DNA of 64,000 bases from an uncultured Verrucomicrobiota bacterium (GCA_903842505.1 CAIMMI010000351.1:261-64260); one strand, 5' to 3'; counted from the first letter of the stretch, positions 31,756-54,800 are shown. A program made the numbers and translations. Notes: generated by a model from the letters alone, not told the origin.

Positions 31756-31783
31756 TCTTCAAAAACCTTTCACGGAATCGACG

Positions 31784-33031
31784 ATGAAATCCCATTCCTT
31801 TCCCACCCAGGCCCTCGGCGCAGGCCTCGCGATGGTCCTGGCCGTATCCGCCTTCGCCCAGTTCCAGGGCGGCGGCGGCAACACCGGCCGTCGGACAGCC
31901 ACGGGCGGCGGCGGTGGCGGCGGCTCGACCCGCGAGTACCCGAACAACACCCAGGTGGGTGATGCCACCATCTCCTACGATCCCGAGACCCGGAAGATCA
32001 TCGTCATCACCGACGAGGAGACGAACATCCAGATCAAGGACGTCATCACCAGCCTCGACAACCCGCGTCCGCAGGTGCTGATCAAGGTCGTATTCCTGGA
32101 GGTGACCCATAACAACAGCTCCGACATCGGCGTCGAGGGCGGCTACGTGCGGCAGTTGGGCAACACGGGACAAGGCTCCGTCGCCAACGCATTTGGAGCC
32201 TCGGCGATCAGCAGTTCCGCAACGTCGGCCGTTCCCAATGTGCTGGGTCAGAATGTCCAGAACATGCTCCCGACGCCTCCCGGCGCGGGGCTGTACCAAG
32301 TGTTGGGCTCGGACTTCCAGGCCACGCTCCGGGCCATCGCCCAGGCGGGCAAGGCGGAGATCCTGTCCCGCCCGTCGATCCTGGCCCGCAACAACCAACC
32401 GGCGACCATCTCGCTCGGTCAGCAGGTGCCGCTCGTTTCCAACACCCGCTTCGACACCATCAACGGTCAGATCAACACCGTCACTTACCAGAACGTCGGC
32501 ATCATCCTTCGTGTGACGCCGTTCATCACGCCGGATGGCATGGTGGAGATGATCGTTGCGCCAGAGACCTCCTCGCTGGCGGATCGTTCCAGCTGGGTGC
32601 CGATCTCCAAGGACGCCCTCGCACCCGTCGTGAACTCACGCCTCGCGGATACCGTGGTGGTCGTGCCCGATGGCCAGACGGTCGTCATCGGCGGTCTGAT
32701 GCAGACCCAGATCACCGAGTCCGAAAGCAAGATCCCGCTGCTCGGTGATATCCCGTACCTGGGAAATGCCTTCAAACGGAAGATCAAGCAGAACCAGAAG
32801 ACCGAGCTGATGATCTTCCTGACGCCGGTGGTGATCCCGGCCCCGGGCGCACTCGCCGGTCTGACTGCCGACGAACGGGCGAAGACCACCCTCAAGCCCA
32901 AGTCGATCCCGCAGAGCGAGCTCGACTCCCTCATCGACACGCTCCCCGTGAAGCCCGAGGTCCCCGTCCAGCCGTTGTCGACCGGCCCCGAGCCCACCGC
33001 CAAGGACAAGAAGAAGAAGTCGGGGAAGTAG
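31784..33031 (+). CDS. gspD: Secretin, C-terminal part (own signal peptide, half N domain, secretin pore domain)
   Basis: ATG 31784 gives MKSHSFPTQALGAGLAMVLAVSAFA-Q, then ATISYDPETRKIIVITDEETNIQIKDVITSLD. The secretin core is VLIKVVFLEV...AEILSRPSILARNNQPATISLGQQVP...IPLLGDIPYLGNAFK...ELMIFLTPVVI. Confidence 0.8.
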   Translation: MKSHSFPTQALGAGLAMVLAVSAFAQFQGGGGNTGRRTATGGGGGGGSTREYPNNTQVGDATISYDPETRKIIVITDEETNIQIKDVITSLDNPRPQVLIKVVFLEVTHNNSSDIGVEGGYVRQLGNTGQGSVANAFGASAISSSATSAVPNVLGQNVQNMLPTPPGAGLYQVLGSDFQATLRAIAQAGKAEILSRPSILARNNQPATISLGQQVPLVSNTRFDTINGQINTVTYQNVGIILRVTPFITPDGMVEMIVAPETSSLADRSSWVPISKDALAPVVNSRLADTVVVVPDGQTVVIGGLMQTQITESESKIPLLGDIPYLGNAFKRKIKQNQKTELMIFLTPVVIPAPGALAGLTADERAKTTLKPKSIPQSELDSLIDTLPVKPEVPVQPLSTGPEPTAKDKKKKSGK

Positions 33032-37269: not shown

Positions 37270-38214
37270 ATGTTTCGGCAGTTGGTCCTGTGGGGATCGT
37301 TCGTGAAGTTCAGCCACACCGTCTTTGCGCTACCGTTTGCGTTGGCGTCGATGATGGTGGCGGCGCGTGAGACTCGGGGTTGGCCGGGTTGGCGGGTGTT
37401 CGGGCTGATCCTGGCGGCGATGGTGGGAGCGCGGACGTGTGCGATGGCGTTCAACCGGATTGTGGACCGTGAATTTGATGCGAAGAATCCGAGGACGGCG
37501 AGTCGTCACCTGCCGATGGGTGCGGTGAGTCTGGCGAGTGCGTGGGCGTTGTGCCTGATCAGCGGTGGGGTGCTGGTGGGGGCGTCATGGTTGTTGAATC
37601 CGATCTGCTTCTGGCTGTCGCCGGTGGCGTTGTTTCTGGTGTGTTTCTATTCGCTGACCAAGCGGTTCACGGACTTCACGCATGTGTGGCTGGGGGTGGC
37701 GTTGGCGGCGGCGCCGGTGGGGGCGTGGTTGGCGGTGGAGGGGGGATTCGATTTCCTGCCGAAGGTCGAGGGGAAGCTGGACCTGCGGCACAGTGCGTTC
37801 ATCCCCTTGGTACTGGGGTTGGCGGTGCTACTGTGGTTGGTGGGCTTCGACATCATCTACGCGACGCAGGACTACGAGTTTGACCGCAAGCAGGGGTTGC
37901 ACTCGCTCGTGGTGCGCTGGGGACCGAAGAACGCGCTGGCGGTGGCGTTCCTGGCCCACCTTTTCATGTGGGCGACGGTGGTGCTGTTCGGGGCGTTGTG
38001 CGGATTCCGGCTGACCTATTGGATCGGGCTGATCCTGATCCTGATGCTCCTGTTGCTGGAGCACATGATCGCGAAGCGGCGGGATGCGGTGGCGGTGAAC
38101 ATCGCGTTCTTCAAGCTCAACTCGGTGGTGAGCATCACGTTCCTGGTGGTGACCGGTGTGGAGATCGTCTTTCCGTGGTTCCGGCTTCGCTGGGCGGATG
38201 GGGTGTTCTTCTAG
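37270..38214 (+). CDS. UbiA-family aromatic polyprenyltransferase (4-hydroxybenzoate polyprenyltransferase-like)
   Basis: ATG 37270. NRIVDREFDAKNPRTASRHLP is the first Asp-rich UbiA motif, and DIIYATQDYEFD is the second. There are about 8 TM segments. Confidence 0.8.
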   Translation: MFRQLVLWGSFVKFSHTVFALPFALASMMVAARETRGWPGWRVFGLILAAMVGARTCAMAFNRIVDREFDAKNPRTASRHLPMGAVSLASAWALCLISGGVLVGASWLLNPICFWLSPVALFLVCFYSLTKRFTDFTHVWLGVALAAAPVGAWLAVEGGFDFLPKVEGKLDLRHSAFIPLVLGLAVLLWLVGFDIIYATQDYEFDRKQGLHSLVVRWGPKNALAVAFLAHLFMWATVVLFGALCGFRLTYWIGLILILMLLLLEHMIAKRRDAVAVNIAFFKLNSVVSITFLVVTGVEIVFPWFRLRWADGVFF

Positions 38215-38225
38215 GAGTCGGGGGT

Positions 38226-38264
38226 GGTCCGGTGGTGGACCGGCGGGTTGTCCGGTGGTGGACC
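38226..38264. repeat. Tandem small hairpins GGTCC-ggtggt-GGACC, two copies
   Basis: ggtccggtggtggacc (38226-38241) and tgtccggtggtggacc (38249-38264) lie just after the stop of the prenyltransferase gene. Confidence 0.6.
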
Positions 38265-38325
38265 AGTCGTGGGGGTTGGGGTGGGGCTTGGCCAGGATGG
38301 CCGAGCCTTCGGGCAATTTCAGACC

Positions 38326-38342
38326 TTGGCACGGGACCTGAT
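38326..38342 (+). promoter_or_regulatory. Weak sigma54-type (-24/-12) promoter candidate
   Basis: TTGGCACGGGACCTGAT against the consensus YTGGCACGrNNNTTGCW. The -24 half is perfect, but the -12 half reads CTGAT (GA instead of the conserved GC). It lies 12-30 nt upstream of the possible starts of the next gene. Confidence 0.25.
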
Positions 38343-38371
38343 CACGGACGAAGTTGAGGGAAATTGAAGCT

Positions 38372-40117
38372 GTGTTGAACGGAACTTCCATTTGGGCGAA
38401 GGGCTGGTTTCGGGTGCTGCTCCTGCTGTTGGCCGGGGCGCGCCTGGTCCATGCGCAGGCGCCGGTGGATTCGTTTGCGGCGCGAGGGTTGCTGACGGGG
38501 AGCGCGGGCACGGTGGCTGGGAGCAACGTGGGGGCGACGGTCGAGCCGGACGAGCCGCGGCATGGCGGGAAGGCGCCCTCGCGGTCGATGTGGATCCGTT
38601 GGCAAGCTCCGGCGAGTGGCCTGGTCAAGTTCGAGGTGGAGGCGCAGGACTTCGACGTGTTGCTGGGGGTGTATCGCTTGAAGGCGGGAGCCCCTGCGGC
38701 ATTGAAGAGCCTGGAGAAGGTGGCGCAGAACGACGATGGACGGCGTGAGCGAGCGGCCGAGGTCGAATTCGGGACTCGGGCGGGCGAGTACTATGAGATC
38801 GCCATTGATGGGTTTGCGCGCAGTTCCGGTGCCTTCGTGTTGAAGTGGCAGCTCGAGGCACTGGACGCGGTCGTCCCGGTGATCATCAACGGTCCGGCCG
38901 ACCAGTCCTATCGGCTGGGGAATCGGGTGGTCCTGTTCTATGCGGTGGAAGATGCCGACGACGTGAAGCTGCATTGGTTCTTCAACGACATCGAACTCGA
39001 GGATCAGGAAGGGCTGACCTTGGTGTTGCCGAGTCTGACCGAGGCGCAGGTGGGGCAGTATCGGCTCCGGGTCGATGTCGACCGGGTGCGGTTCTTCACG
39101 GAGCCGGTGGAGGTGCAGCTGACGACGGAGGGGGACGCGGGAACGTTGGCGCGGAACAAGCCGGAAGACGCGATGGAATCGCCGTTGGTGGGTTCCGCGT
39201 GGGTGGGTCCGGTGGTTCGGCGGGGTGCGGCGCCGGCGGGCGATGGGGTTTCGCGGGGGTACAGCGGTTCCCAGGTCTTCAACACCGTGTACGCGGGGCG
39301 GGATCCGGCGGAGCCGGTGCATTGCGGTCGTGGAACGGGGGCTTCGTACTGGTTCGCGTACGTGCCGCCTGCGGCGGGGACCTTGTCGGTGGATACGGTG
39401 GGCAGCAGTTTTGACACGGTGTTGGCGGTGTACACCTATGAATTGCCGTATCTCGGGTACGCGAGTCTCCGGAACGTCGAGTGCGACGACAATTCGGGCC
39501 CGGACGGGACGAGTTCGCGGTTGAGGTTCGCTGCGCAGAGCGACCGGCCCTATCTGGTGGTGGTCGATGGCGTGAATGGAGCGAAGGGGCGGGCACGGCT
39601 GAACTATCTTCTCGAGACCAATCTGGTTCCCGTGCTGGTGGCCCCTCGGGTGATATCCACCTCGAAGGACCGCGTGGTTCCCGTGGGCATGCCGGTCAGT
39701 CTGTCGGCGGAAGTGGAGGGATCGCCGCCGCTGACGTTTCGTTGGCTGGTTTCAGGATCGACCGCCGTGGTGACGACCAATGCGTTGCTCGACCTGGGGC
39801 CGGCGGTGCCGGCTTTTGGCGGGACGTATCGGCTTGAGGTTGCGAATGCGGTGGGTTCGGTGACCTCGGCGCCGGTGGCCGTGACGGTATGGTCGAGTCC
39901 GGTGCTGACGCACGAGGCGGCAGGCGGCCTGATGCTGAGATATCACGCGGCGGGGCCGGCGCTGGTGGCTTTGGAGGCGACGCCGGACCTGACCCAGCCG
40001 TGGTCCCCATGGACGACGGGAGAGGCCGGGGTGGGTGGGTTGGTTCAGTTGCCGGTGGATCCGGCGATTACGAACAAGCTTTTCTGGCGTCTGAATCCCG
40101 CTGCCGACGCGCCCTGA
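38372..40117 (+). CDS. Secreted protein with two PPC-like (pre-peptidase C-terminal type) domains alternating with two Ig-like domains
   Basis: The start is GTG 38372 (or TTG 38354), before WFRVLLLLLAGARLVHA-Q. The PPC-like domains are GSNVGATVEPDEPRHGG...DVLLGVYR...AQNDDG...YYEIAIDGF and EPVHCG...SFDTVLAVYT...ECDDNSG...YLVVVDGVNG. The Ig-like segments end GQYRLRV and GTYRLEVANAVGS. Confidence 0.6.
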   Translation: MLNGTSIWAKGWFRVLLLLLAGARLVHAQAPVDSFAARGLLTGSAGTVAGSNVGATVEPDEPRHGGKAPSRSMWIRWQAPASGLVKFEVEAQDFDVLLGVYRLKAGAPAALKSLEKVAQNDDGRRERAAEVEFGTRAGEYYEIAIDGFARSSGAFVLKWQLEALDAVVPVIINGPADQSYRLGNRVVLFYAVEDADDVKLHWFFNDIELEDQEGLTLVLPSLTEAQVGQYRLRVDVDRVRFFTEPVEVQLTTEGDAGTLARNKPEDAMESPLVGSAWVGPVVRRGAAPAGDGVSRGYSGSQVFNTVYAGRDPAEPVHCGRGTGASYWFAYVPPAAGTLSVDTVGSSFDTVLAVYTYELPYLGYASLRNVECDDNSGPDGTSSRLRFAAQSDRPYLVVVDGVNGAKGRARLNYLLETNLVPVLVAPRVISTSKDRVVPVGMPVSLSAEVEGSPPLTFRWLVSGSTAVVTTNALLDLGPAVPAFGGTYRLEVANAVGSVTSAPVAVTVWSSPVLTHEAAGGLMLRYHAAGPALVALEATPDLTQPWSPWTTGEAGVGGLVQLPVDPAITNKLFWRLNPAADAP

Positions 40118-40140
40118 ACGGACCTGACCCATTTCGACCC

Positions 40141-41640
40141 ATGAGCCTTGCCGAGGATGGAACCTTTTCGTGCCTGTTGATGGACGATGACCGTGGCTTT
40201 GCGTCGATGCTGGCGACGCTGGTGCGGGAGCAGGGAGGGCAACCGCTGTATTGCTCGTCGGTGACCGAGGCTCGGGAAGTGATCCAACGGCGGTCGTTTG
40301 ACCTGGCCGTGATCGACAACCGCCTGCCGGACGGCACCGGCTACGAATTCTATCCCGAATTGCGGCGGCGCTGTCCGGACACGGTGGTCCTGATGATCAC
40401 GGGCGCGCCGGAGTTGGCGAAGGCGGTTGAGCTGACGCGCAACGGACTCTTCGACTACCTGACCAAGCCGTTGCAGGCGGCCGACTTCACGGCCTCGCTT
40501 CAACGGGCGCGGCTGCGGCTGAGCCGGCCGGATCCGAAGGGGATCGCGGAACTGATCGGTCGTTCCTCAGCGATGCAGGGCGTGGTGGATCACCTGCAAC
40601 AGGCGGCGCGGCATCCTGGGGTGACCGTGCTGCTGCTGGGCGAGACCGGTACTGGCAAGGACCTCGCGGCTCGGGTGCTGCACCGCCTATCGTATCCGAA
40701 GGATCCGGAGGGTGCGCCGTACATCCCGCTCAACTGTTCGGCGGTCCCGGCCGAGATGTTCGAGTCGGAACTCTTCGGCAGCGAGAAGGGGGCCTACACG
40801 GGATCGGATCGGCGGCGGAGTGGATTGGTGGGTGCGGCGGAGGGGGGAACCCTTTTCCTGGATGAGGTGGCAGAGATCCCGTTGCTGCAGCAGGCGAAGC
40901 TGCTGCGGTTCCTCGAGTCCCGCGAATATCGCCCGCTGGGCACGACCACGCCGCGCGAGTTCACGGGACGGATCGTGGCGGCGACGCACCGTGACCTGGC
41001 GACGGAAGTGGCAGCGGGTCGGTTCCGGGAAGATCTCATGTACCGGTTGGATGTGATGAGCATCCGATTGCCGTCACTGAGGGAGCGGGCGGGGGATATC
41101 CCGCCGCTGACGGAGGCGATCGTGCAGCAGTTGGCGACGAAGTATGGGCGGCGGACGCCGTTGGTCCGGCCGGAGGATCTCCAGGCGCTTTCGGGGCATC
41201 ATTTTCCGGGAAACGTCCGCGAGTTGCGGAACCTGTTGGAGCGATCGCTGCTGAAGACCCCGCCGGACTCAGCGTGGATGAACCTCGATATCGCGTGGCT
41301 GCGGCAACGGTCGAGTCCGGCTGCGTCGCGGGAGTTTCCCGCGGCCGTGGTGCCGCCGGTTGCGGCATCGGCGCCCGTGGTTCCCGTGCCCGTGGTGCCG
41401 GTTTCGGAGCCGGCCAGCGTGCCGTTTCCATCGGCGGTGACGGCGGCTTCGGTCGGTGTGGAAGTCCCGGCGGATCGAACCCTGACTCCGCTCGAGTTGC
41501 AGGAGTACCAAATGATCGCGCGGGTGCTTCGCGAAGAGCACGGTGGAATCCGGCGAGCGGCCTTGCGTCTGGGGCTCACGCATCAGGCCCTGCTGCGTCG
41601 TCTGCAGAAGTGGCCGGAACTCCGGCCGTCGTCAGAGTAG
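40141..41640 (+). CDS. Sigma54-dependent response regulator (NtrC family)
   Basis: ATG 40141. It has a receiver domain (LLMDDD...DLAVIDNRLPDG), an AAA+ domain (GETGTGKDLAARVLH, ESELFGSEKGAYTGS, GGTLFLDEV), and a Fis-type HTH (GGIRRAALRLGLTHQALLRRLQKW). Confidence 0.85.
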   Translation: MSLAEDGTFSCLLMDDDRGFASMLATLVREQGGQPLYCSSVTEAREVIQRRSFDLAVIDNRLPDGTGYEFYPELRRRCPDTVVLMITGAPELAKAVELTRNGLFDYLTKPLQAADFTASLQRARLRLSRPDPKGIAELIGRSSAMQGVVDHLQQAARHPGVTVLLLGETGTGKDLAARVLHRLSYPKDPEGAPYIPLNCSAVPAEMFESELFGSEKGAYTGSDRRRSGLVGAAEGGTLFLDEVAEIPLLQQAKLLRFLESREYRPLGTTTPREFTGRIVAATHRDLATEVAAGRFREDLMYRLDVMSIRLPSLRERAGDIPPLTEAIVQQLATKYGRRTPLVRPEDLQALSGHHFPGNVRELRNLLERSLLKTPPDSAWMNLDIAWLRQRSSPAASREFPAAVVPPVAASAPVVPVPVVPVSEPASVPFPSAVTAASVGVEVPADRTLTPLELQEYQMIARVLREEHGGIRRAALRLGLTHQALLRRLQKWPELRPSSE

Positions 41641-41657
41641 GGAGATTGGAGACTTTC

Positions 41658-44600
41658 ATGAATGCGACCCCATCCCGGTTCCTGCGTTGTGGTTTGATCC
41701 TGTGGGCGCTTGCGTGCCTTGCGGCATCCGGGTTGGTACGGGCGGAGGAGGTGGGGAATTCGCGGTTGGTGGAGTGGGCTGGGCGGGTGGAGATCTCGCG
41801 GACCAACGCGGCCTTCGCGGCGCCGGGCACGAATTTGTTACTGACGGTGGGCGATCGGATCCGGACCGGACCGGCGAGTCGCGCGACGCTTCAGTTGTCG
41901 GACCGCTCGGTGGTGCGCATCGGGGCGGAGACCGTGCTGGAGATCCGGGCGCCGGCGCAGGCGGCTGGGACGCGGCGGTTCGATCTGAAGTCCGGACTGC
42001 TCTTCTTTTTGAACCGGGAACGGCCGGGCAGCGTGGAATTCGATACGCCGCTCGTCTCGGGAGCGATCCGCGGAACGGAGTTTTCGTTGAGGGTGGATCC
42101 GGCGGATGGAGCGACGGTCCTCGGGTTGTTTGCGGGAGCGGTTGATCTGAAGTCGGCGCAGGGGGCTGCGGCGGTGGCTGCGGGGCAGGAGATCGAGATC
42201 CGTCCGGGGACCATGCCGGTCGTGCGACCGGTGTTGCCGCTGCGTCGCGGGATCCAATGGGCGTTCCACTATCCGATCGTCCTCGATCCCGGGTTGGTGT
42301 CTGGCGGATTGCCGGAAGGGGTTGCGTGGCGGTCGGTGCTTGAAGCCTACACGACGGGGGATCTGGCGTCGGCGCACGCGGCGTTGCCGGCCGGGACCGG
42401 AGCGGGTGAACCCGCGATGGCGCGTGCGTTGCGGGCGGGTCTGGAGCTTTCGATGGGCCGGGTTGCGGAGGCGCGGGCGGTGATTGCTTCAATCCCGACC
42501 GGGCCGGCGGATTCGGCGGTGCGCGCGTTGGAGACGATGATCGCCGCGGTGACGTTGGAGGAAGGAGCGACGGCGATCGCGGTGAACGATGCATCGGATG
42601 CTTCGGTCTGGCTGGCGGAGTCCTATGCGCGGCAATCCCGGCTCGATCTCGAAGCTGCCTGGGTTGCGGTGGACGAGGCGGTGAGGCGGTCGCCGCAGTT
42701 CGGCGCTGCCTGGGCGCGGCGCGCGGAGATGGCGTTGTCGACGGATCGGCGGATCGAGGCGGCGCGATCGTTGGAGCGGGCCCGGCAGTTGGCGCCGAGG
42801 CATGCGCTGGTCCCGGCGTTGGAGGGATACCTTGCGATGGACGAGCGGCGTTGGGACGCGGCGGAGTTTGCGTTCGGGGAGGCGATCCGGATGGATGGAT
42901 CGCTCTCGGTGGCGTGGTTGGGGCGGGGATTGCTGCGGACGCATCAGGGGCGGTTGGGCGAGGCGCTCGCGGACCTGCAGGTGGCGGCGGCGCTGGAGCC
43001 GCAGCGCGGTGCGATGCGGGCGGCGCTGGGGAAGGCCTTTGGCGAAGCGGGTGAGGATCGGCTGGCCCAGAAGGAGTTCCGGTTGGCGCGCGAATTGGAC
43101 CCGGCGGATCCGACGCCTTGGTTCTACGCGGGGCTGCAGGACCTGCAGGAGAACCGATACAACGCGGCCGTGCGCAACCTTCAGGAAGCCTCGGAGAAGA
43201 ACGATGGCCGGGCCGTGTTCCGGTCGAGGCAACAGTTGGATCGGGATCAGGCCATGCGGAGTGCGGACCTGGGCGTGGCGTATTCGGTGACTGGATTGGA
43301 CGAGGTGGCTTGGCGTGCGGCGACGCGGGCGGTGGTCGAGGACTACACGGATTTTTCGGGTCACCTGTTCACGGCGCGGGCGTTGCAGGCCCGGGAAGAT
43401 CCTGCGGGATTCGACCTGCGCTGGGAGACGGCGCGGCAGGCGGAGTTGCTGGTGGCGAACCTGCTGGCGCCGCCGGGTGCCGGGAATCTGTCGCGGGTCC
43501 TGTCACAGCAGGATCACCTGCGTGCTTTCGGGCTTGCGCCGTTGGGAGCGTCGAGTCTGACCGAGTACCATTCGCGGGGCGATTGGGAGCAACGGGGAAG
43601 CGTGTTCGGGCAGTGGGCGGCCTTGGCGTATGCGGTGGACACGCAGTATCGGAGCCTGCGCGGACAGGGACCGCTTCAGGGGCAGGAGTCCTTCCGGTCG
43701 TCGGCGCAGGTCCGCTTCGACCTCGGACCAGCGGACGCCCTCCTCGTGCAGACCGCGGTGGGCGAAGGCAACGCAGAAGATGTGGCGCGCCGGTATGATC
43801 CGAACGCTTCGACCGCCTTGCGGGCGTGGAGCCGCCGTGAGCCGGAGTTGCAGGTTGGTTACCGACACGAATGGCGACCTGGTGTGGTGACGCTGGGGTT
43901 GGTCTCGCATCTGTCGGACCGACTGCGCGTTGAGAACCCGGATCAGCAGACGCCGTTCCTCGTGTATCGAGGTGGGGCGCCGGCGGGATTCGGGACGGTG
44001 GCGAGCCATGGCCTAGAATTGGAGAGCACGTTCGAGCTGAACTCGGTTGAGTTGCAGCAGGTCTTTCAGGGCGAGTGGCAGGGAATCGTGGCCGGTGCGC
44101 GGTACCAGTCGGGCGACGTGGATACGCGCTCGCGGTTGGTGCCCCTGCTCCCGGGGCCGGACATTGCCGGAGTGAATCGGTCGGATCTGGAACGGGCGAA
44201 TGGATACGCCTACTGGCAGGTCAGGCCGTGGAACTGGATCCGGGCGTGGGCGGGCGTCTCGTACGATCACCTCGAGTATCCCGGCAACGCGGATCTCGCT
44301 CCGGTGGCGACCGGGGGATCGGATGGATCGAGTCGTTCGTTGTTGGCGCCGAAGGTGGCGTTGGCGCTCCTGCCGTGGAAGGGAGCGGAGGTTCGTGCGG
44401 CGTTCACGCGTTCGCTGGGCGGGTTGTACTTTGACGATTCCATGCGGCTCGAACCCGGACAGATTGCGGGATTTGGGCAATCGTTCCGGAGCCTGGCGCC
44501 GGAGTCGGTCGTGGGGTTGGTGCCGGCCACGGCCTTCGAGACCGTCGGCGTGCGGTGGGATCAGAAGCTGCCCCGGGATGTGTATGTGGGTATCGAGGCG

Positions 44601-45158
44601 TTGCATCTGGAATCCGACGGAAGCCGCGGTGTGGGCGTCCTGACGAATTCACTGCCGTTCCCGTTGGCGGATTCGCCGTCGCAGTTGGGGCAGTCGGTCG
44701 ATTTCACGGAGCGGTCCGTGGCTGGCTATGCGGGTCTGTTGGTCGGGGATTCGTGGTCGGCCGGCGTTCGTCCGCGGGTTTCCGAGGCCGAGTTGGTGAC
44801 GCGGTTCCCGTCGTTGGCAGAGGGATTGCCGGGTTTGGACCAGATGTCGGGAACGCGGACGGCGACCTTGTTCGAGGTGGGGTTGTGGCTGCGCGTGAAT
44901 CATCCGTCCGGTTTTTTTGCGGGCTGGGACAGCACGTGGCGGCAGCAGCATCTGTCGGGTGGGGCGGTTGCCCTGCCCGATGAGGTGTTCTGGCAGCACG
45001 ACGTGCATGTTGGGTACCGGTGGCCGCGGCGACATGCGGAGGTGCGGGTGGGCGTGTTGAACCTGGCGGATTCGGATTACCGGTTGGATCCGTTGAACCT
45101 GATGGCGGAGCCGGCGAGGCAGCGGACGTTTCACGCGAGCCTGAGGCTGAATTTTTGA
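41658..45158 (+). CDS. Secreted FecR-domain / TPR / TonB-dependent-receptor-like beta-barrel fusion protein
   Basis: ATG 41658 gives MNATPSRFLRCGLILWALACLAASGLVRA. The FecR-like region is GRVEISR...LTVGDRIRTGPASRATLQLSDRSVVRIGAETVLEI...GAIRGTEFSL. There are several TPR-like repeats at roughly residues 330-640. The C-terminal approximately 500 aa have alternating beta patterns and end VGVLNLADSDYRL...RTFHASLRLNF (terminal Phe beta-signal). Confidence 0.6.
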   Translation: MNATPSRFLRCGLILWALACLAASGLVRAEEVGNSRLVEWAGRVEISRTNAAFAAPGTNLLLTVGDRIRTGPASRATLQLSDRSVVRIGAETVLEIRAPAQAAGTRRFDLKSGLLFFLNRERPGSVEFDTPLVSGAIRGTEFSLRVDPADGATVLGLFAGAVDLKSAQGAAAVAAGQEIEIRPGTMPVVRPVLPLRRGIQWAFHYPIVLDPGLVSGGLPEGVAWRSVLEAYTTGDLASAHAALPAGTGAGEPAMARALRAGLELSMGRVAEARAVIASIPTGPADSAVRALETMIAAVTLEEGATAIAVNDASDASVWLAESYARQSRLDLEAAWVAVDEAVRRSPQFGAAWARRAEMALSTDRRIEAARSLERARQLAPRHALVPALEGYLAMDERRWDAAEFAFGEAIRMDGSLSVAWLGRGLLRTHQGRLGEALADLQVAAALEPQRGAMRAALGKAFGEAGEDRLAQKEFRLARELDPADPTPWFYAGLQDLQENRYNAAVRNLQEASEKNDGRAVFRSRQQLDRDQAMRSADLGVAYSVTGLDEVAWRAATRAVVEDYTDFSGHLFTARALQAREDPAGFDLRWETARQAELLVANLLAPPGAGNLSRVLSQQDHLRAFGLAPLGASSLTEYHSRGDWEQRGSVFGQWAALAYAVDTQYRSLRGQGPLQGQESFRSSAQVRFDLGPADALLVQTAVGEGNAEDVARRYDPNASTALRAWSRREPELQVGYRHEWRPGVVTLGLVSHLSDRLRVENPDQQTPFLVYRGGAPAGFGTVASHGLELESTFELNSVELQQVFQGEWQGIVAGARYQSGDVDTRSRLVPLLPGPDIAGVNRSDLERANGYAYWQVRPWNWIRAWAGVSYDHLEYPGNADLAPVATGGSDGSSRSLLAPKVALALLPWKGAEVRAAFTRSLGGLYFDDSMRLEPGQIAGFGQSFRSLAPESVVGLVPATAFETVGVRWDQKLPRDVYVGIEALHLESDGSRGVGVLTNSLPFPLADSPSQLGQSVDFTERSVAGYAGLLVGDSWSAGVRPRVSEAELVTRFPSLAEGLPGLDQMSGTRTATLFEVGLWLRVNHPSGFFAGWDSTWRQQHLSGGAVALPDEVFWQHDVHVGYRWPRRHAEVRVGVLNLADSDYRLDPLNLMAEPARQRTFHASLRLNF

Positions 45159-45170
45159 GGGGAGGGCGTT

Positions 45171-45202
45171 CCCCGCCTCCTGACGTCGGCGGCTACGGGG
45201 GG
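45171..45202. repeat. Family C partial copy between convergent genes
   Basis: The sequence is ccccgcctcctgacgtcggcggctacgggggg. Confidence 0.7.
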
Positions 45203-45204
45203 AT

Positions 45205-46230
45205 TTATTTGAGGAGGCGCCAGGCTTGTTGAAGCGGGTGGAGCGAGGAGAGGTCGACAGGGTGGAAGGAATCGCCGGAGGCTTCGAAGTAGGTTTGAGC
45301 CTGCCATCGGGCGAAGAGGGTGTCGGGAAGCACCGTGGTGAGGGTTCCGGTGGCGCGGGCGCACGAGGCTTCGGTTTCGATCAGTTCCCGGAGGTAGGGC
45401 GCGTAGAGGTGGAGCGTCGCGACGGAGTCAGCGGTGGCGTGGTAGCGCCATAGGGAGTTGGCGACGCGGCGCTGCCCCAGGAAGTGGAGCCCATGGAAAT
45501 GGTAGAAGACCGGGCGCAGGCCGTTGGAGTGGAGGTGACCGTCCACCACCGAGAGGGGGAAGTCGCGGAGGTTCCAGGGGGCGAGTCCGGCGACGGGTGG
45601 ATCGAGGATTGTGACCTGGCCGGGGAAGTCGTCGGGCCAGGAATCGAGGTAGCGTTGGTCGGCGTAGCGCCGGTTCCGTTCATCGACGCGGTGGAAGCAC
45701 CATTCGAGGCACTGGCGGCGCCACTGGTTGAGGCATGCGCGGCCGATGGCGTCATTGCGGAAGCCCTGGAAGGAGACGTTGAAGTTCCCGGTCTGGAGTC
45801 CGACCTTCCGTATGGGTTGGGTGAAAGCGTGCCGGGTGATGAAGATCGGCCTCTGCTCGAGTTGTCTGAGAAGGGGGGTGGGATCCGAGAGGAAGAAGAG
45901 GTCGGCGTCGAGGGAGACCACGGCATCGAAGCGGTCGGTGTCCAGGAGGTGAAGGGGCAGGCAGGGGCTGAGCGTGAAGCAGTATTCGCCATGGCTGCGG
46001 TTGCGACGTGCTTTTGGGAGTTCCGGGTCGGCGGCTTCGAGCGTGCCGATGGCGATGGGGCGGAGGCCGGGTTCGCCCAGTTGCGAAAGCCACGTGTAGG
46101 AAATGTCGTCGAGGCAAAGGGCGAAGACCTCGGGGGCAGGCGACGGCATCTGGCGGCGGAGGGAGCGGATCATGGCCAGGCCGCGGGAGAGGTACCGGCG
46201 GTCGAAGAGCGTGGTGAACGCGATGTTCAT
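45205..46230 (-). CDS. Nucleotide-diphospho-sugar (GT8-like) glycosyltransferase, putative
   Basis: ATG 46230 gives MNIAFTTLFDRRYLSRGLAMIRSL. VVSLDADLFF is DxD-like. ATGA overlap with the upstream methyltransferase gene. Confidence 0.5.
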   Translation of the reverse strand: MNIAFTTLFDRRYLSRGLAMIRSLRRQMPSPAPEVFALCLDDISYTWLSQLGEPGLRPIAIGTLEAADPELPKARRNRSHGEYCFTLSPCLPLHLLDTDRFDAVVSLDADLFFLSDPTPLLRQLEQRPIFITRHAFTQPIRKVGLQTGNFNVSFQGFRNDAIGRACLNQWRRQCLEWCFHRVDERNRRYADQRYLDSWPDDFPGQVTILDPPVAGLAPWNLRDFPLSVVDGHLHSNGLRPVFYHFHGLHFLGQRRVANSLWRYHATADSVATLHLYAPYLRELIETEASCARATGTLTTVLPDTLFARWQAQTYFEASGDSFHPVDLSSLHPLQQAWRLLK

Positions 46231-47066
46231 CGGGCGGCGGGTTCGAGGACAAACCCGGCCCATTCGAAGCGTTGGCCGCCGATCCACCCGGGATCATCGC
46301 AGGCGCTGACCGAGGTGCCGGCGATGCGGAAGCGGGAGGCGATTTCCCTGGTCAGGAGGTCGTGTGCGAAGAACCAGAAGGGTGACTCCATGCGGTAGAT
46401 GCACCTGGGCACGACCTGGCGTGTGAGGCGGTGCCGTGGAGCGGAGCGGAGGACGGCGAGACGTTCGATGAGCGTCCACGGGGCTCGCAGTGCGGCGAGT
46501 TCCTCCAGGGTCCGATTGAGGTCCGGGATATAGGGGAGGACGCCGGCAGCAACGACCACATCGGGTGCTCCAAGGGTATCCGTGGCTTCCTGAATGGACT
46601 CGAAGAACCGGACAGCCGGGTCATCGACCACGGTGCGGGCGGCGCGGACCACTTCCGGAGTTTCGACAACCGCCCATTGGATCGGACCGAACCGATCGAG
46701 CCAGGCGCGATTCTGGAAGAAACCGGCGCCGAATCCGCCGCCGAAATCGAGGACCGTACGAGGTTGGCTGGGGCCGGTGGCGAGGCTGGCCAAGGCCGTG
46801 AGCAATGGCCATTCGGGGCGGGGGTCATCGAAGAGGATTCCGTCCCGTTCGTGGTGCGCCGAGCCTGCGGCGAGGGCCCGATGTGCGCGCGCATAGGCCT
46901 CGCACATGGGGCCGGGACCATGGGGTCGACAGGCGGCGGCGGCGGACGACCAATCCGGGTAGTCCCCCGACCACATCGAAGAGTTGAGCCGGAGGATCCG
47001 GGCAGCGTGTTCGGACAATCGGCAGGCTGCGATGCCTGGTGTCAGGTCCCGGAGGCGTTCTGTCAT
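46227..47066 (-). CDS. SAM-dependent methyltransferase, putative
   Basis: ATG 47066. VLDFGGGFGAGF is motif I and DVVVAAGVLPYIPD is a motif II-like stretch. Confidence 0.55.
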   Translation of the reverse strand: MTERLRDLTPGIAACRLSEHAARILRLNSSMWSGDYPDWSSAAAACRPHGPGPMCEAYARAHRALAAGSAHHERDGILFDDPRPEWPLLTALASLATGPSQPRTVLDFGGGFGAGFFQNRAWLDRFGPIQWAVVETPEVVRAARTVVDDPAVRFFESIQEATDTLGAPDVVVAAGVLPYIPDLNRTLEELAALRAPWTLIERLAVLRSAPRHRLTRQVVPRCIYRMESPFWFFAHDLLTREIASRFRIAGTSVSACDDPGWIGGQRFEWAGFVLEPAAR

Positions 47067-47077
47067 CCGGCCTGGCT

Positions 47078-49318
47078 TCACTTCTGCGGCACCCGGTGGA
47101 TGGTCTGGAGGATCTCGCTTTCGACAGGTTGGCCGGTGGCGGACTTGAGCGCATACCGGATCCGCTGCTGCATGGCAGGGAGGGTGGAAGCGAGCGTCAG
47201 GCGGACGGTCTTGCCATCGGGTGAAAGCTCGGCGGCGGTGACATCGACCGGGTCGTGCCCCTTGGCGGTGGGCTCGGAGATGCGGAATTCGGGTGAGCCG
47301 TACTTCTCGGTCCACTGGTAGTTCCAGCGCTCGACGCTCCAGTTCTGGAGGTCGCGGACCGTGGCGGGGTCGAGGGCGTCCGTGAAGGTGATCTCGACGC
47401 CGGTCTTCTGCACATGGAGGTCGCGGGGCATGGTGACGGGTTTGCCGGTGTAGCGGACGCGGTGGAAGGCGCCCTGGCGGGCCCCGTTGGATTGCCAGAT
47501 GACGAGGCCGCAGGTGTAGAGTTGGCCGTCGAGGGGGCTGAAGCGGGAACGCATGATCCCGGACTCAAAGCGCAGCGGGAACCGGACGACGCCGGCCTGG
47601 CGGACGCCATCGACCTCCTCATGCATGACCTTGAAGAGCGAGCAGGTGCCGTAGCTGGTGTGGAGCAGGTCGCCTGCGAAAGGACCCCAGCGCTTGCTGG
47701 TGACCCAGGCCTGGCCGCCGGAGGAATTATCGGCGTTCTTGGGGAGCCAGAAGAGCGGAAGATCGTAGTCTGTGGGCTTGGGGGTTCGATGGGCGGTGAA
47801 GACGTGGCCGTAGAATCCGCCGGGCTTCATCCAGTTCACGCGGGAGGCGGGCACCCAGTTGCCCTCGTTGTCGCTGGAGGTGATCTGGTCCTCGGGTCCC
47901 ATGCCGATGCCATTGGGAGCCCGGAGGCCGGTGGCGACGACGGAGAGCTTCTTGCCGTCGGGCGAGACCTTCAGGAGCGTGCCATGATGGGGGATCTTTG
48001 CGTCGCCGAGGTTGCCGCCCTTGTTGAAGTAGAAGTTGCCGGCGCGGTCGGTTTCGAGCCCGAGGCAGAACTCGTGGTAATGGTCGGTGATCGTGGTGTC
48101 GTTGTTGAAATTCTCGTAGTGGTCGGCTTCGCCGTCCTTGTTGAGGTCGTGGAGGCGGGTGATCTGGTCGCGGCCGAGTACATAGACCTGATCGTTGACG
48201 ATGCGGAGGCCGAGGGGTTGGAACAGGCCGGAGGCGAATCGTTGCCAACGGATGTTCTGCAGGCCTTCGTCGAGGCCGGAGACGATCCACACGTCACCGG
48301 AGACGTTGCAGATGGCGGCGCGGGTGGCGTCCTTGAAGAAGTCGAAGCCACCGAATCGGAGCCAGGACTTCTGTGGGTTTTCGTCGGGCCAGGTGATGGT
48401 ATCGACGACGTAGGCACCATCGCCCCCGCTGGTGGCGAGCTTGCCCTGGGTGACGAGGGGTTCGCCCCAGATCTTCGGGCCGGGCTTGAGGTCGGCACGC
48501 AGGTCGGCCGGGGCGCTGCGCTTGAACGTCGGGCTGCCTTCAGGAAGGAAGGTGAGGCGGAAGGGGCGGTGGGCCTTGGTGGCGGGAATGGCAAGCCAGA
48601 GCGTCGAGTCGCGCAGTTCGAATCGGGCATCACCGGCCAGGCCGTCCAGGCGGACTTCGACGGCGGTGGAGTTGGTGCCGTGCCGGAAAGTGACGGAGTT
48701 CGGCGCGTTGGAAATACTGCGGGAAGGAACTTCCGCGATGCGGAGCATCTTCGGGCTGGAAGCGCGGGTGAACTGGATGACGCGGTTGAACCTCCCTCCC
48801 TCGAAGCTGGGTTGCTCGAGGACGCCCGTGTCACCGAGGTCGTATTCGAGGACGACGCGGTCGCCGTGGCGGTGGAGTCCCCTCCAATGGCCCCACGAAT
48901 CCGGCAGGCGTTCGAACTTGGTGGCGCGAGGGTCCTGGAGGTTCGCGGCGGTCGCCCAGCCTGGCCCGTTGGAGGTGGCCAACATCACGTCGCCCCAGGG
49001 TTCGGGAAGGCCTTCCATGCCGTCGCGGCCGCGGGGCAGGTGCAGGAATCCGCCGGACCAGGCGGCGTTCCAGCGGAGGCTCATGGTGTCGAAGTTGACG
49101 GCGGCCGGGGCCGCTTCGGAGCCGACGCGGACCGTCAGGGTCTTCAGGGCGGCGACGGAGCCCTTGAGGTTGGACGAGAAGAACGGGCCTTGGTCCATCT
49201 GCTCCCATTTCCAGCGGCCGGCGGCGTCGGTGGGAATCGGGGGTTTGGCCTTCTGGGCAAGAGCGACGGTGCCGGACGTCAGGAGGCCGGCCAAAGCGAG
49301 GGTAGGGAGGCGGAGCAC
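47078..49318 (-). CDS. Secreted beta-propeller protein of the PVC 'membrane-bound dehydrogenase domain' type (no cytochrome c motif seen)
   Basis: The signal is MLRLPTLALAGLLTSGTVALA. ITRLHDLNKDGEADHYENFNN...EFCLGLETDRAGNFYFNKGG is typical of SGL/sorbosone-dehydrogenase-like propellers. No CxxCH motif is present. Confidence 0.5.
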   Translation of the reverse strand: MLRLPTLALAGLLTSGTVALAQKAKPPIPTDAAGRWKWEQMDQGPFFSSNLKGSVAALKTLTVRVGSEAAPAAVNFDTMSLRWNAAWSGGFLHLPRGRDGMEGLPEPWGDVMLATSNGPGWATAANLQDPRATKFERLPDSWGHWRGLHRHGDRVVLEYDLGDTGVLEQPSFEGGRFNRVIQFTRASSPKMLRIAEVPSRSISNAPNSVTFRHGTNSTAVEVRLDGLAGDARFELRDSTLWLAIPATKAHRPFRLTFLPEGSPTFKRSAPADLRADLKPGPKIWGEPLVTQGKLATSGGDGAYVVDTITWPDENPQKSWLRFGGFDFFKDATRAAICNVSGDVWIVSGLDEGLQNIRWQRFASGLFQPLGLRIVNDQVYVLGRDQITRLHDLNKDGEADHYENFNNDTTITDHYHEFCLGLETDRAGNFYFNKGGNLGDAKIPHHGTLLKVSPDGKKLSVVATGLRAPNGIGMGPEDQITSSDNEGNWVPASRVNWMKPGGFYGHVFTAHRTPKPTDYDLPLFWLPKNADNSSGGQAWVTSKRWGPFAGDLLHTSYGTCSLFKVMHEEVDGVRQAGVVRFPLRFESGIMRSRFSPLDGQLYTCGLVIWQSNGARQGAFHRVRYTGKPVTMPRDLHVQKTGVEITFTDALDPATVRDLQNWSVERWNYQWTEKYGSPEFRISEPTAKGHDPVDVTAAELSPDGKTVRLTLASTLPAMQQRIRYALKSATGQPVESEILQTIHRVPQK

Positions 49319-52005: not shown

Positions 52006-52628
52006 TGGACTTTGGTTTCATCGATCCACTGGATCGCTCGCAGCGAGGCCAGATGGGAACTGAAGCGGATACCAACCCGGGAGGCGGCCTCGCGACAGAT
52101 CTCGATCTGCGAGGACTCCGCCGTGAGCAAGAGGTTGATGGTGCCTCCCGACCTGGCAAACCCGGGTTGTTCACCCACGAGGAGGATGGGTGAACGGCGG
52201 ACCGCCTCAGGCACACCCGCCAGTCCTCGGCGATAGTCGCGTCCGACGTAGATCAGTTGCACGTCCTGCCAGGAGTCCGGCATTTGGCGGCGGACCTGGA
52301 TCGGGTGTTCGCCGATTTTCTGCTCGGCGGCGACTTTCTGGAGTTGGGCAGCGACCTCTGGTGCATCGAGGACGATCATCACGAAGGTCGAGTTGGATGC
52401 GGCGAAGGTGTTTGTGGGCCATTGGACGAACGGCAGGATCTTCAGGATGGCCGCCGCCTTGACGGCGGGTTCCGGGGCGGATCTCGGCTTGGTTGGGGTC
52501 TGACCCGTTGCCGTCCACGTCAAGCCCGCGCAGGCCCAGAGCACCAAGACTCCCATCGCAATCCCTGACAGGGCTTGCCCAAGCCTCTTCCCTCGCCCTC
52601 CCCGTATTTCCTTGGTTGGGGCGCTCAT
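52002..52628 (-). CDS. YfiR-like (DUF4154) periplasmic protein
   Basis: A signal/anchor is followed by [16 protein letters not shown]...[11 protein letters not shown]...[10 protein letters not shown]...[24 protein letters not shown] overlap with the kinase start. Confidence 0.6.
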
Positions 52629-54676: not shown

Positions 54677-54800
54677 GGAGAACAGGGTCCCTCGGTCGGC
54701 AGGTTAATCGACGTCGATCCGGGATAACGAGTACGTTTTTGGGGATGGTGAGGGAGGGTTTGGGGTGGGCCTGACGCTGGGGAACAGGGTGGCTTGGACC

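What the first reader, a model, noticed from the sequence alone, without database searches (positions are those of the whole stretch)
41658..45158. FecR sensor domain, TPR array and TonB-receptor-like barrel fused in one 1166-aa exported protein, co-operonic with an orphan sigma54 activator
In the Fec paradigm, FecR is an inner-membrane anti-sigma factor that contacts a separate TonB-dependent transducer and an ECF sigma. Here a signal peptide is followed by a FecR-like beta-sandwich, then about 300 aa of TPR-like repeats. Next comes a roughly 500-aa C-terminal region with TonB-dependent-receptor-like strand patterns and a canonical ...LRLNF terminus. I recognise no plug domain or TonB box. 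The gene lies 17 nt after an NtrC-type response regulator that has no adjacent histidine kinase. That regulator lies 23 nt after a secreted PPC/Ig protein gene (38372..40117). No ECF sigma is nearby. The trio looks like a self-contained cell-surface sensing or export module that I cannot match to a described system.
Basis: partly seen in the sequence, partly recalled or inferred. Interest (0 to 1): 0.62.

Follow-up and report, generated by a model that had tools for sequence, protein, structure and literature searches.

The report
NsrA-like outer-membrane signal receptor operon
This freshwater verrucomicrobial gene encodes a large outer-membrane protein related end to end to a rhizobial NsrA-type receptor (FecR domain, helical arm, plug-less barrel); it most likely passes an outside signal to a CHASE2 sensor kinase encoded elsewhere in the genome, so the design is real and widespread but already described.

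Summary
ORF 41658-45158 encodes a 1166-aa exported protein with three parts: a FecR beta-sandwich, a TPR/helical arm, and a 22-strand barrel like those of TonB-dependent transporters. It has no plug domain and ends in ...LRLNF.

It is not an unmatched system. A profile of 83 verrucomicrobial homologues aligns end to end (hhalign probability 99.4%) with the Rhizobiaceae FecR-TPR-barrel protein that sits directly upstream of a CHASE2 adenylate cyclase. I infer that this rhizobial protein is NsrA of Sinorhizobium meliloti, the outer-membrane receptor that relays a plant signal to the cyclase CyaK.

Relatives occur at 537 or more places in species genomes, nearly all Verrucomicrobiota. In 31 of 39 loci with full flanks a CHASE2 gene lies close by, usually a hybrid histidine kinase, together with the sigma54 regulator and the Ig protein.

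In this genome the kinase orthologue is intact but unlinked; it lies about 0.44 Mb away in a closed 92%-identical relative. The regulator is therefore not an orphan and the trio is not self-contained.

Sigma54-type promoters and TCCG-N4-CGGA palindromes are strongly enriched upstream of the Ig and barrel genes, which suggests autoregulation.

Verdict: a new variant of a known kind, of modest interest.

The parts
38226..38264 (.). Two palindromes, GGTCCGGTGGTGGACC (38226-38241) and TGTCCGGTGGTGGACC (38249-38264), 23 nt apart. They are candidate upstream activator sites for the sigma54 response regulator.
   Evidence: Read. The palindromes are conserved in the upstream regions of L010, L014 and L001 while the surrounding intergenic sequence diverges. 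Only one other pair with the same 23-nt spacing exists in the 5.2-Mb genome (C73:30473/30496). The core TCCG-N4-CGGA lies upstream of the Ig gene in 22 of 56 related loci, against a background of 0.087 per 300 nt.
38327..38342 (+). Sigma54-type -24/-12 element TGGCACGGGACCTGAT. The -24 half is perfect; the -12 half has GA in place of GC. It lies 30 nt upstream of the GTG start of the Ig gene.
   Evidence: Found and conserved in L010, L014 and L001. Canonical GG-N10-GC elements lie upstream of the Ig gene in 25 of 56 loci and upstream of the barrel gene in 29 of 79 loci, where 3.2% is expected (binomial P about 1e-22). They occur upstream of 0 of 50 CHASE2 genes. No sigma70-like promoter was found in 38100-45400. 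rpoN is present in the genome.
38372..40117 (+). Exported 581-aa all-beta protein with a signal peptide, two PPC-like sandwiches, two Ig-like domains and a C-terminal beta domain. It is a conserved partner of the receptor; its role is unknown (co-receptor or regulated output).
   Evidence: Translation. Pfam gives Ig_3 and I-set, plus a weak PPC hit. The AlphaFold2 model has pLDDT 83.6 and Foldseek returns only multi-Ig matches. A homologue is present in 35 of 39 full-flank loci.
40141..41640 (+). NtrC-type response regulator of 499 aa: receiver domain (D59, T87, K109), sigma54 AAA+ domain (Walker A GETGTGK at 167, GAYTGS loop at 217), lid and Fis-type HTH.
   Evidence: A homologue is present in 24 of 39 full-flank loci.
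41658..41744 (+). Signal peptide of the receptor, residues 1-29, with predicted cleavage after VRA.
   Evidence: Read from the translation. The model shows a helix at residues 6-26 followed by a low-confidence linker.
41760..42230 (+). FecR-type beta-sandwich, residues 35-191. Predicted to be periplasmic and to contact the CHASE2 sensor.
   Evidence: Pfam PF04773 covers residues 66-162 at E 2e-12. The model shows strands over 35-191.
42288..43520 (+). Helical TPR-like arm, residues 211-621, including the highly conserved linker LLVANLLAPPGAGNLS before the barrel.
   Evidence: Pfam TPR families, PDB sequence hits to TPR proteins, and helices at 211-621 in the model.
43545..45158 (+). Plug-less 22-strand outer-membrane barrel, residues 630-1166, with the C-terminal signature ...SLRLNF and the stop codon.
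   Evidence: The model has 22 strand elements. The top Foldseek hits are TonB-dependent transporters. Many homologues have weak PF00593 hits. The barrel alone finds 1091 clusters, almost all in proteins of 1130-1260 aa with the barrel at the C-terminus.

Best explanation
The 1166-aa protein is an NsrA-type outer-membrane signal receptor of a freshwater Limisphaerales bacterium.

Shown:
- It has a Sec signal peptide, an N-terminal FecR beta-sandwich, a helical TPR arm of about 400 residues and a plug-less 22-strand barrel of the TonB-dependent-transporter fold.
- It is homologous over its full length to the rhizobial FecR-TPR-barrel protein encoded directly upstream of a CHASE2 adenylate cyclase.
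- Its gene family is linked to CHASE2 sensor genes: hybrid histidine kinases in most Verrucomicrobiota, adenylate cyclases in a sub-clade and in rhizobia.

Inferred:
- The barrel sits in the outer membrane and exposes its loops to the outside.
- The TPR arm spans the periplasm and presents the FecR domain to the periplasmic CHASE2 domain of the kinase.
- Surface binding of a still unknown ligand changes kinase activity. The kinase phosphorylates the sigma54 response regulator encoded in the operon.
- The regulator binds TCCG-N4-CGGA palindromes and activates sigma54 promoters in front of the Ig-protein and receptor genes. This is positive autoregulation.
- In this genome the regulator probably also drives a second operon on contig C73, which encodes a secreted PAP2/vanadium-haloperoxidase-like protein, a DUF3050 protein and a PEP-CTERM protein.

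In this lineage the kinase gene has moved away from the Ig-regulator-receptor operon, which made the regulator look like an orphan.
For: Architecture: Pfam; AlphaFold2 model with pLDDT 85.6 and pTM 0.83; Foldseek top hits all TonB-dependent transporters at E about 1e-14; no Plug hit, whereas the window's own TonB-dependent transporter has one.

Family size: at least 421 full-length homologues; at least 537 places in species genomes, nearly all Verrucomicrobiota; 1091 clusters found with the barrel alone, nearly all of the same length and layout.

Homology to the rhizobial family: tblastn hits on Sinorhizobium chromids. Rhizobium sp. BG4 carries a 1213-aa FecR+TPR protein ending in KIRF, followed at once by a CHASE2 cyclase. 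The same pair is found on S. meliloti pSymB. hhalign gives probability 99.4%, E 1e-21, with 1010 collinear columns.

NsrA function from the literature: an outer-membrane beta-barrel protein (barrel at aa 600-1200) required for signalling to the CHASE2 cyclases CyaK and CyaD1/D2 (PMC7529298, PMC13001267, PMC10463352).

Neighbourhoods. Of 39 full-flank loci, 31 have a CHASE2 gene, 25 of them kinases and 6 cyclase or other.

Kinase in this genome: a 873-aa orthologue, 42-44% identical, is reconstituted across contigs C78 and C86, which share an exact 141-nt overlap. It lies about 0.44 Mb from the trio in the closed relative.

Regulation: sigma54 promoter enrichment, palindrome enrichment, conserved elements in the window clade, a second site in the genome, and rpoN present.

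Expression: lake metatranscriptome contigs cover all three genes and bridge both gene junctions.
Against: - No experiment or structure shows contact between a FecR domain and a CHASE2 domain. The relay step is inferred from gene linkage and from NsrA genetics.
- That the pSymB / BG4 protein is NsrA rests on size, barrel position, adjacency to the CHASE2 cyclase gene and my memory of the primary paper, which I could not read.
- In this window no CHASE2 gene is adjacent, so the pairing is by orthology only.
- A CHASE8 hybrid kinase lies 4.2 kb away and is syntenic in the closest relative.
- The window's -12 element has GA instead of the canonical GC.
- How a plug-less 22-strand barrel is sealed is unknown. 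I could not inspect the model's coordinates.
- Metatranscriptome contigs carry no strand information and may include DNA.
Confidence: 0.7

Rival explanations
1. The protein is an export or secretion pore. In this reading a TPR scaffold fused to an outer-membrane barrel works like PgaA, BcsC or PelB of synthase-dependent exopolysaccharide systems, or exports the co-encoded Ig protein. The two-component system merely regulates its expression.
For: TPR followed by a C-terminal barrel is the layout of those exporters (my knowledge of the families). The barrel has no plug. The Ig protein is exported and co-conserved. The Ig and barrel genes are sigma54 targets, as regulated outputs would be.
Against: The best structural matches are 22-strand TonB-dependent transporters, not exopolysaccharide porins. 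No synthase or glycosyltransferase is conserved in the neighbourhoods. The FecR domain and the tight linkage to CHASE2 sensors with different outputs, kinase or cyclase, are not explained by export. The homologous rhizobial protein acts in signal perception (PMC7529298).
Confidence: 0.12
2. The sigma54 regulator is phosphorylated by the nearby CHASE8-HAMP hybrid kinase (49369-52005, - strand) rather than by the distant CHASE2 kinase. The receptor would then work independently of CHASE2 in this lineage.
For: The CHASE8 kinase lies 4.2 kb downstream and is retained at the same position in the 92%-identical relative L010.
Against: It is absent from the loci of the next relatives, L014 and L001, and from all more distant loci. 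It is on the opposite strand, beyond three unrelated genes. The CHASE2 kinase orthologue is retained intact in this genome and at 89% identity in L010's genome.
Confidence: 0.1
3. The protein is a TonB-dependent transducer of the FecA/FecR kind. It would import a substrate and signal through the fused FecR domain to a sigma factor.
For: It has the barrel fold of TonB-dependent transporters and a FecR domain. ECF sigma genes lie a few genes upstream of the module in two distant loci.
Against: It has no plug domain and no N-terminal signalling domain. The true transporter in the same window has a clear plug. It lacks the cytoplasmic anti-sigma domain, the transmembrane helix and the FecR C-terminal domain. 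No ECF sigma gene is in the window near the operon. No TonB or ExbBD genes are linked in the neighbourhoods read.
Confidence: 0.03

Closest known systems
NsrA of Sinorhizobium meliloti (with its Rhizobiaceae family of 'FecR domain-containing proteins' encoded upstream of the CHASE2 cyclase gene cyaK)
   Same: Similar size (1166 aa here; 1190-1213 aa in rhizobia). Same order of parts: signal peptide, FecR domain, TPR region, and a C-terminal barrel of about 550-600 aa ending in an aromatic residue. Collinear profile homology over about 1010 columns. Genetic linkage of the family to CHASE2 receptors. A verrucomicrobial sub-clade even keeps the cyclase directly downstream.
   Different: Only about 22-25% identical. 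In most Verrucomicrobiota the partner is a CHASE2-PAS hybrid histidine kinase with a sigma54 response regulator instead of an adenylate cyclase with Clr. A conserved exported protein of about 580 aa with Ig/PPC domains is added. In this genome the CHASE2 gene is unlinked. The ligand is unknown (for NsrA, a plant uL2 protein is proposed; PMC7529298).
FecR-domain periplasmic proteins paired with CHASE2 sensors (Burkholderia BiofilmReg operon: RR, LysM-FecR protein, CHASE2 kinase; Campylobacterota CHASE2-cyclase clusters)
   Same: A FecR domain outside the cytoplasm is encoded next to a CHASE2 sensor and its response regulator or second-messenger output (PMC5192318, PMC9239204).
   Different: There the FecR domain is on a separate small protein (with LysM) or on separate FecR and TPR proteins. 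Here FecR, TPR and an outer-membrane barrel form one polypeptide, and the regulator is a sigma54 activator rather than a CreB/OmpR type.
TonB-dependent transporters and transducers (FecA, FoxA, OprC, Fiu)
   Same: The barrel fold: 22 strands, best Foldseek matches at E about 1e-14, weak PF00593 hits in homologues.
   Different: No plug, no TonB box and no STN signalling domain. The N-terminal extension is a FecR sandwich plus about 400 helical residues.
FecR/PupR anti-sigma factors of ECF cell-surface signalling
   Same: They share the PF04773 beta-sandwich and the general idea of passing an outer-membrane signal inward.
   Different: No cytoplasmic anti-sigma domain, no membrane-spanning helix and no partner ECF sigma. 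The domain is fused to the outer-membrane component instead of the inner-membrane one.

Membership tests
NsrA-like outer-membrane receptors (FecR-TPR-barrel) | Single exported polypeptide of about 1150-1250 aa with an N-terminal FecR domain, a central TPR region and a C-terminal beta-barrel | tested here: met
   Pfam, AlphaFold2 model, Foldseek. The rhizobial counterpart has FecR at 63-157, TPR at 415-530 and the ending KIRF. The NsrA barrel is given as aa 600-1200 (PMC7529298).
NsrA-like outer-membrane receptors (FecR-TPR-barrel) | Sequence homology over the whole length to the rhizobial protein | tested here: met
   hhalign of A1 against P0124: probability 99.4%, E 1.1e-21, 1010 columns, 54-1168 aligned with 41-1213. 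BLASTP alone aligns only the N-terminal part (best segment residues 65-515; a second reaches about 670) at about 25% identity. The equation of P0124 and the pSymB ORF with NsrA itself is inferred, because the primary paper was not readable.
NsrA-like outer-membrane receptors (FecR-TPR-barrel) | Gene adjacent to a CHASE2-domain receptor gene | tested here: inconclusive
   Met for the family: 31 of 39 full-flank loci, including the cyclase type. Not met in this window. The orthologous CHASE2 kinase lies on other contigs and about 0.44 Mb away in the closed relative.
NsrA-like outer-membrane receptors (FecR-TPR-barrel) | Outer-membrane location and requirement for signalling to the CHASE2 partner | not testable with these tools
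   Needs fractionation and genetics. Only the signal peptide, the barrel fold and the C-terminal Phe support the location.
TonB-dependent transporters | 22-strand beta-barrel | tested here: met
   22 strand elements at 630-1165. The top 50 Foldseek hits are all TonB-dependent transporters.
TonB-dependent transporters | N-terminal plug domain (PF07715) with a TonB box | tested here: not met
   No Plug hit at E<=1. The residues before the barrel are helical. The internal control transporter at 52628-54703 hits Plug at 4.5e-22.
FecR-type anti-sigma factors | Cytoplasmic anti-sigma domain, one transmembrane helix, FecR domain, C-terminal STN-binding domain, and an adjacent ECF sigma gene | tested here: not met
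   Only PF04773 is present, after a cleavable signal peptide. No ECF sigma gene was found among the neighbouring genes examined.
TPR-barrel exopolysaccharide exporters (PgaA, BcsC, PelB) | TPR domain plus a smaller porin barrel, encoded in an operon with a polysaccharide synthase | tested here: not met
   No exopolysaccharide porin appears among the top 50 structural matches. No synthase is conserved in the related loci read.
NtrC-type sigma54 response regulators (the co-operonic regulator) | Receiver domain with phospho-acceptor Asp, AAA+ domain with a GAFTGA-type loop, and a Fis-type HTH | tested here: met
   Pfam REC, Sigma54_activat, AAA_lid_14 and HTH_8. D59, T87, K109, GETGTGK at 167 and GAYTGS at 217. 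It scores below the cut-offs of every named NCBIfam equivalog, including PEP-CTERM PrsR.

The most novel reading that the evidence does not exclude
Verrucomicrobiota would use a four-part trans-envelope signalling pathway that needs neither an ECF sigma factor nor TonB. An NsrA-type plug-less barrel, possibly gated by or loaded with the co-conserved exported Ig/PPC protein, senses a macromolecular cue at the cell surface. It transmits the signal mechanically through its TPR arm and FecR domain to a CHASE2 kinase. The kinase then switches on sigma54-dependent genes, including the receptor's own operon. This would give CHASE2, a sensor domain whose ligands remained unknown in the literature read here (PMC5192318), a general mode of activation: a protein partner rather than a small ligand.
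Probability: 0.35. Interest if true: 0.6.

Novelty: new variant of a known kind. Interest (0 to 1): 0.36.

Why it matters
CHASE2 is a common bacterial sensor domain, and the literature read here reports no known ligand for it (PMC5192318, 2016). NsrA is the only studied example I know of an outer-membrane protein feeding such a sensor.

This analysis shows that the same receptor family is abundant in Verrucomicrobiota. There it is wired to a histidine kinase and a sigma54 activator instead of a cyclase, and its own promoter appears to be a target. That supports a general rule in which a FecR domain talks to CHASE2.

It also offers a simple reporter for finding the ligand and the mechanism: the sigma54 promoter of the Ig gene.

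For genome annotation, these 'FecR domain-containing protein', 'TonB-dependent receptor' and 'TPR protein' calls can be unified as NsrA-like receptors. Apparently orphan sigma54 regulators can then be paired with distant CHASE2 kinases.

Tried and rejected
- Pfam and NCBIfam on the window protein gave no barrel family. A PDB sequence search gave only TPR hits.
- I considered the PEP-CTERM regulatory set (PrsT TPR lipoprotein and PrsR sigma54 regulator) because of weak NCBIfam hits. Both scores are far below the cut-offs (40.7 against 312; 248 against 502.6), so I rejected it.
- A plain scan of the whole window for the sigma54 consensus was not enriched: 18 hits against 20 expected. The signal appeared only when upstream regions of many loci were compared.
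- The second CHASE2 protein of the genome, a cyclase on C289, is unrelated to the module's kinase beyond the domain and has no receptor next to it.
- I could not obtain model coordinates. So I could not test whether the conserved linker (residues 585-625) or the conserved loop RLEPxQxAGF (residues 922-957) fills the barrel.
- The primary NsrA paper was not held, and a locus-tag search found nothing.
- Foldseek on the Ig protein gave only generic multi-Ig matches and no functional lead.
- No intrinsic terminator was found after the operon.


Full report
**1. Observation**

The window is GC-rich (about 66%). A 92%-identical match to a closed Limisphaerales MAG chromosome places it in a freshwater verrucomicrobium, and the stretch is held by lake, river and estuary metagenomes.

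ORF 41658-45158 (+) is open and encodes 1166 aa.
- The N-terminus is a typical Sec signal peptide.
- Pfam finds FecR (PF04773) at residues 66-162 (E 2e-12) and several TPR families between about residues 350 and 520. Nothing is found in the last 600 residues.
- The gene 17 nt upstream (40141-41640) encodes a complete NtrC-type regulator: a receiver with D59, T87 and K109; a sigma54 AAA+ domain with Walker A and a GAYTGS loop; a lid; and a Fis-type HTH.
- The gene 23 nt before that (38372-40117) encodes an exported protein with Ig-like and weak PPC matches.

One detail needs correction. A hybrid kinase (CHASE8-HAMP-HisKA-HATPase-REC) does lie 4.2 kb downstream on the opposite strand.

**2. The C-terminal half is a plug-less TonB-receptor-type barrel**

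An AlphaFold2 model built on 83 full-length homologues is confident (pLDDT 85.6, pTM 0.83).
- It shows a beta-sandwich at 35-191, helices at 211-621 and 22 strand elements at 630-1165. Short turns fall on one side of the barrel and long loops on the other.
- The best 50 Foldseek matches in the PDB are all TonB-dependent transporters: Fiu, PqqU, OprC, FoxA and others, at E about 1e-14 and TM about 0.55 on the target.
- Many homologues have weak PF00593 hits.
- There is no plug. PF07715 does not hit even at E<=1. A real TonB-dependent transporter in the same window (52628-54703, - strand) hits Plug at 4.5e-22 and PF00593 at 1e-42.
- The ending ...SLRLNF is conserved across the family.

**3. The family**

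A word-based search found at least 421 full-length relatives at 42-86% identity. They are variously named 'FecR domain-containing protein', 'TPR protein' or 'TonB-dependent receptor', and all named ones are verrucomicrobial.

A scan of one genome per species found at least 537 encoding stretches, almost all in Verrucomicrobiota (Limisphaerales, Pedosphaera). Several genomes have two copies. An exhaustive search with the barrel alone found 1091 clusters (398 at E<=1e-30). Nearly all are proteins of 1130-1260 aa with the barrel at the C-terminus. The three-part fusion is therefore a stable, old architecture and not a local accident. This genome has one copy.

**4. Neighbourhoods**

In five loci read with pre-computed Pfam labels, the Ig protein and the sigma54 regulator accompany the receptor every time. 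In four of the five a CHASE2-PAS-HisKA-HATPase-REC hybrid kinase is adjacent. Gene order is either Ig-RR-receptor-kinase or kinase-RR-Ig-receptor.

A tblastn table over 84 loci confirms this. Among the 39 loci with at least 6 kb upstream and 4 kb downstream:
- 31 carry a CHASE2 gene (25 kinases, 6 with another output);
- 35 carry an Ig-type protein;
- 24 carry the regulator.

The 'other output' is an adenylate/guanylate cyclase placed directly after the receptor gene. Those loci have no regulator. The constant pair is thus receptor plus CHASE2 sensor, and the output varies.

**5. This genome**

The window and its nearest relatives (L010 at 92%, L014 at 78%, L001 at 67%) lack an adjacent CHASE2 gene. 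The genome nevertheless holds two CHASE2 genes.
- One is an unrelated cyclase.
- The other, at the end of contig C78, is 42-44% identical to the module's kinases. That is about the same divergence as the receptor itself shows.

C78 overlaps the reverse complement of C86 by exactly 141 nt. The join gives an intact 873-aa kinase. In the closed chromosome of the 92% relative, the kinase (89% identical) lies at 2.81 Mb and the trio at about 3.25 Mb. The regulator is therefore separated from its likely kinase, not orphaned.

The nearby CHASE8 kinase is syntenic only in the closest relative.

**6. Regulation**

I scanned 280 nt around the predicted starts for GG-N10-GC elements with at most 2 mismatches to TGGCACN5TTGCW. 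The expected frequency is 3.2%.

| Gene upstream region | Loci with a site | Binomial P |
|---|---|---|
| Receptor (barrel) gene | 29 of 79 | 5e-23 |
| Ig gene | 25 of 56 | 1e-22 |
| Regulator gene | 4 of 40 | 0.04 |
| CHASE2 gene | 0 of 50 | 1.0 (not enriched) |

(All.)

In the window the element is TGGCACGGGACCTGAT at 38327-38342. Its -12 half has GA rather than GC. It is nevertheless conserved in the three clade relatives while the surrounding spacer diverges.

About 60-115 nt upstream of that element lie two palindromes (GGTCCGGTGGTGGACC and TGTCCGGTGGTGGACC) spaced 23 nt apart. They are also conserved in the clade. The core TCCG-N4-CGGA occurs upstream of the Ig gene in 22 of 56 loci, against a background of 0.087 per 300 nt.

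The same pair with the same spacing occurs only once more in the genome (C73:30473/30496). It lies about 90 nt upstream of a one-mismatch sigma54 promoter. That promoter faces an operon for a secreted PAP2/vanadium-haloperoxidase-like protein, a DUF3050 protein and a PEP-CTERM protein.

Other supporting points:
- rpoN is present.
- No sigma70-like promoter was found between 38100 and 45400.
- Lake metatranscriptome contigs cover all three genes. Pieces bridge the Ig/regulator junction (39305-40286 and 40071-40322) and the regulator/receptor junction (41233-41740). This fits one transcript, although such contigs carry no direction and may include DNA.

**7. Comparison with what is known**

The literature links FecR domains to CHASE2 sensors in several lineages:
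- a Burkholderia operon of response regulator, LysM-FecR protein and CHASE2 kinase (PMC5192318);
[quoted passage not shown] It is required for perception of a plant signal (uL2) by the CHASE2 cyclases CyaK and CyaD1/D2 (PMC7529298, PMC13001267, PMC10463352).

A tblastn search of the window protein against plasmids and chromids hit Sinorhizobium and Rhizobium replicons over residues 62-515.
- In Rhizobium sp. BG4 the hit is a 1213-aa 'FecR domain-containing protein' (FecR, TPR, ending KIRF), followed at once by a CHASE2 cyclase.
- The same pair sits on S. meliloti pSymB.
- A profile of the verrucomicrobial family aligns with the rhizobial protein from end to end: probability 99.4%, E 1e-21, 1010 columns.

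I take this rhizobial protein to be NsrA. The grounds are its size, its barrel position, its neighbour and my memory of the primary paper, which I could not read.

Notes from earlier agents on other genomes reached the same reading. They are not independent evidence, but I re-derived each step here.

**8. The Ig protein**

The model (pLDDT 83.6) is a string of five or six beta-sandwich domains: PPC-like, Ig, a disordered linker, PPC-like, Ig, and a small C-terminal domain. Foldseek returns only generic multi-Ig matches. A twice-repeated motif (GEPxH...W.xW/Y..P) is conserved. Its role remains open: co-receptor, cargo or regulated output.

**9. Verdict**

It errs in calling the trio self-contained, the regulator an orphan and the system unmatched.

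The system is a verrucomicrobial variant of the NsrA-CHASE2 relay, with a two-component/sigma54 output, an added Ig partner and probable autoregulation. In this lineage the kinase gene has been relocated.

The mechanism of signal passage is inferred and not shown, for this protein and for NsrA alike.

Noticed in passing
own genome contig C73:28900-30520 (locus L094 3252-6520, minus strand): A second copy of the paired palindromes (GTCCGGTCACGGAC and GTCCGTTTATGGAC, 23 nt apart) lies about 90 nt upstream of a one-mismatch sigma54 promoter (TGGCACGTGTGGTGCA). The promoter faces genes for a secreted PAP2/vanadium-chloroperoxidase-like protein, a DUF3050 (haem-oxygenase-like) protein and a PEP-CTERM protein. 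This is a candidate second target of the regulator.
   Followed up: partly
own genome C78:35612-36853 joined to the reverse complement of C86: The CHASE2 hybrid kinase (873 aa) ends in a receiver-like domain that lacks the N-terminal acidic pair and has Arg in place of the conserved Lys (...LSRPF). It is probably a pseudo-receiver. The gene follows ubiD, while the trio follows ubiA.
   Followed up: partly
window 30124-33031 (+): A GspD-type secretin is split into two overlapping ORFs: 30124-31755 (N0 plus Secretin_N repeats) and 31640-33031 (Secretin domain). This could be a frameshift, an assembly error or a real split.
   Followed up: no
window 49369-52005 (-): A hybrid histidine kinase with CHASE8, HAMP, HisKA, HATPase and receiver domains lies 4.2 kb from the operon. 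It is syntenic only in the 92%-identical relative.
   Followed up: partly
window 45205-49318 (-): Three co-directional genes converge on the operon: a 360-aa protein with no Pfam hit, a SAM methyltransferase, and a 746-aa exported DUF6797/DUF7133 protein. They are not conserved next to the receptor in other loci.
   Followed up: no
loci L011, L024, L031, L041, L045, L058, L068, L076: Contigs that carry clear verrucomicrobial copies of the receptor are filed under MAGs labelled Cyanophyceae, Bifidobacterium, Akkermansia muciniphila or Haliangiales. These look like mis-binned or mislabelled records.
   Followed up: no
loci L065 and L081 (receptor at 10001-13390; cyclase at about 13420-15470): A verrucomicrobial sub-clade has the receptor gene followed directly by a CHASE2 adenylate/guanylate cyclase, with no sigma54 regulator. 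This is the same layout as the rhizobial FecR-TPR-barrel / CHASE2-cyclase pair (inferred NsrA-CyaK). L081 also has a divergent 1054-aa protein rich in Ig domains.
   Followed up: partly
locus L004 1246-1782 and the P0119 locus: In two loci of the kinase-RR-Ig-receptor type, an ECF sigma factor gene lies two or three genes upstream of the CHASE2 kinase. I did not test whether it belongs to the module.
   Followed up: no
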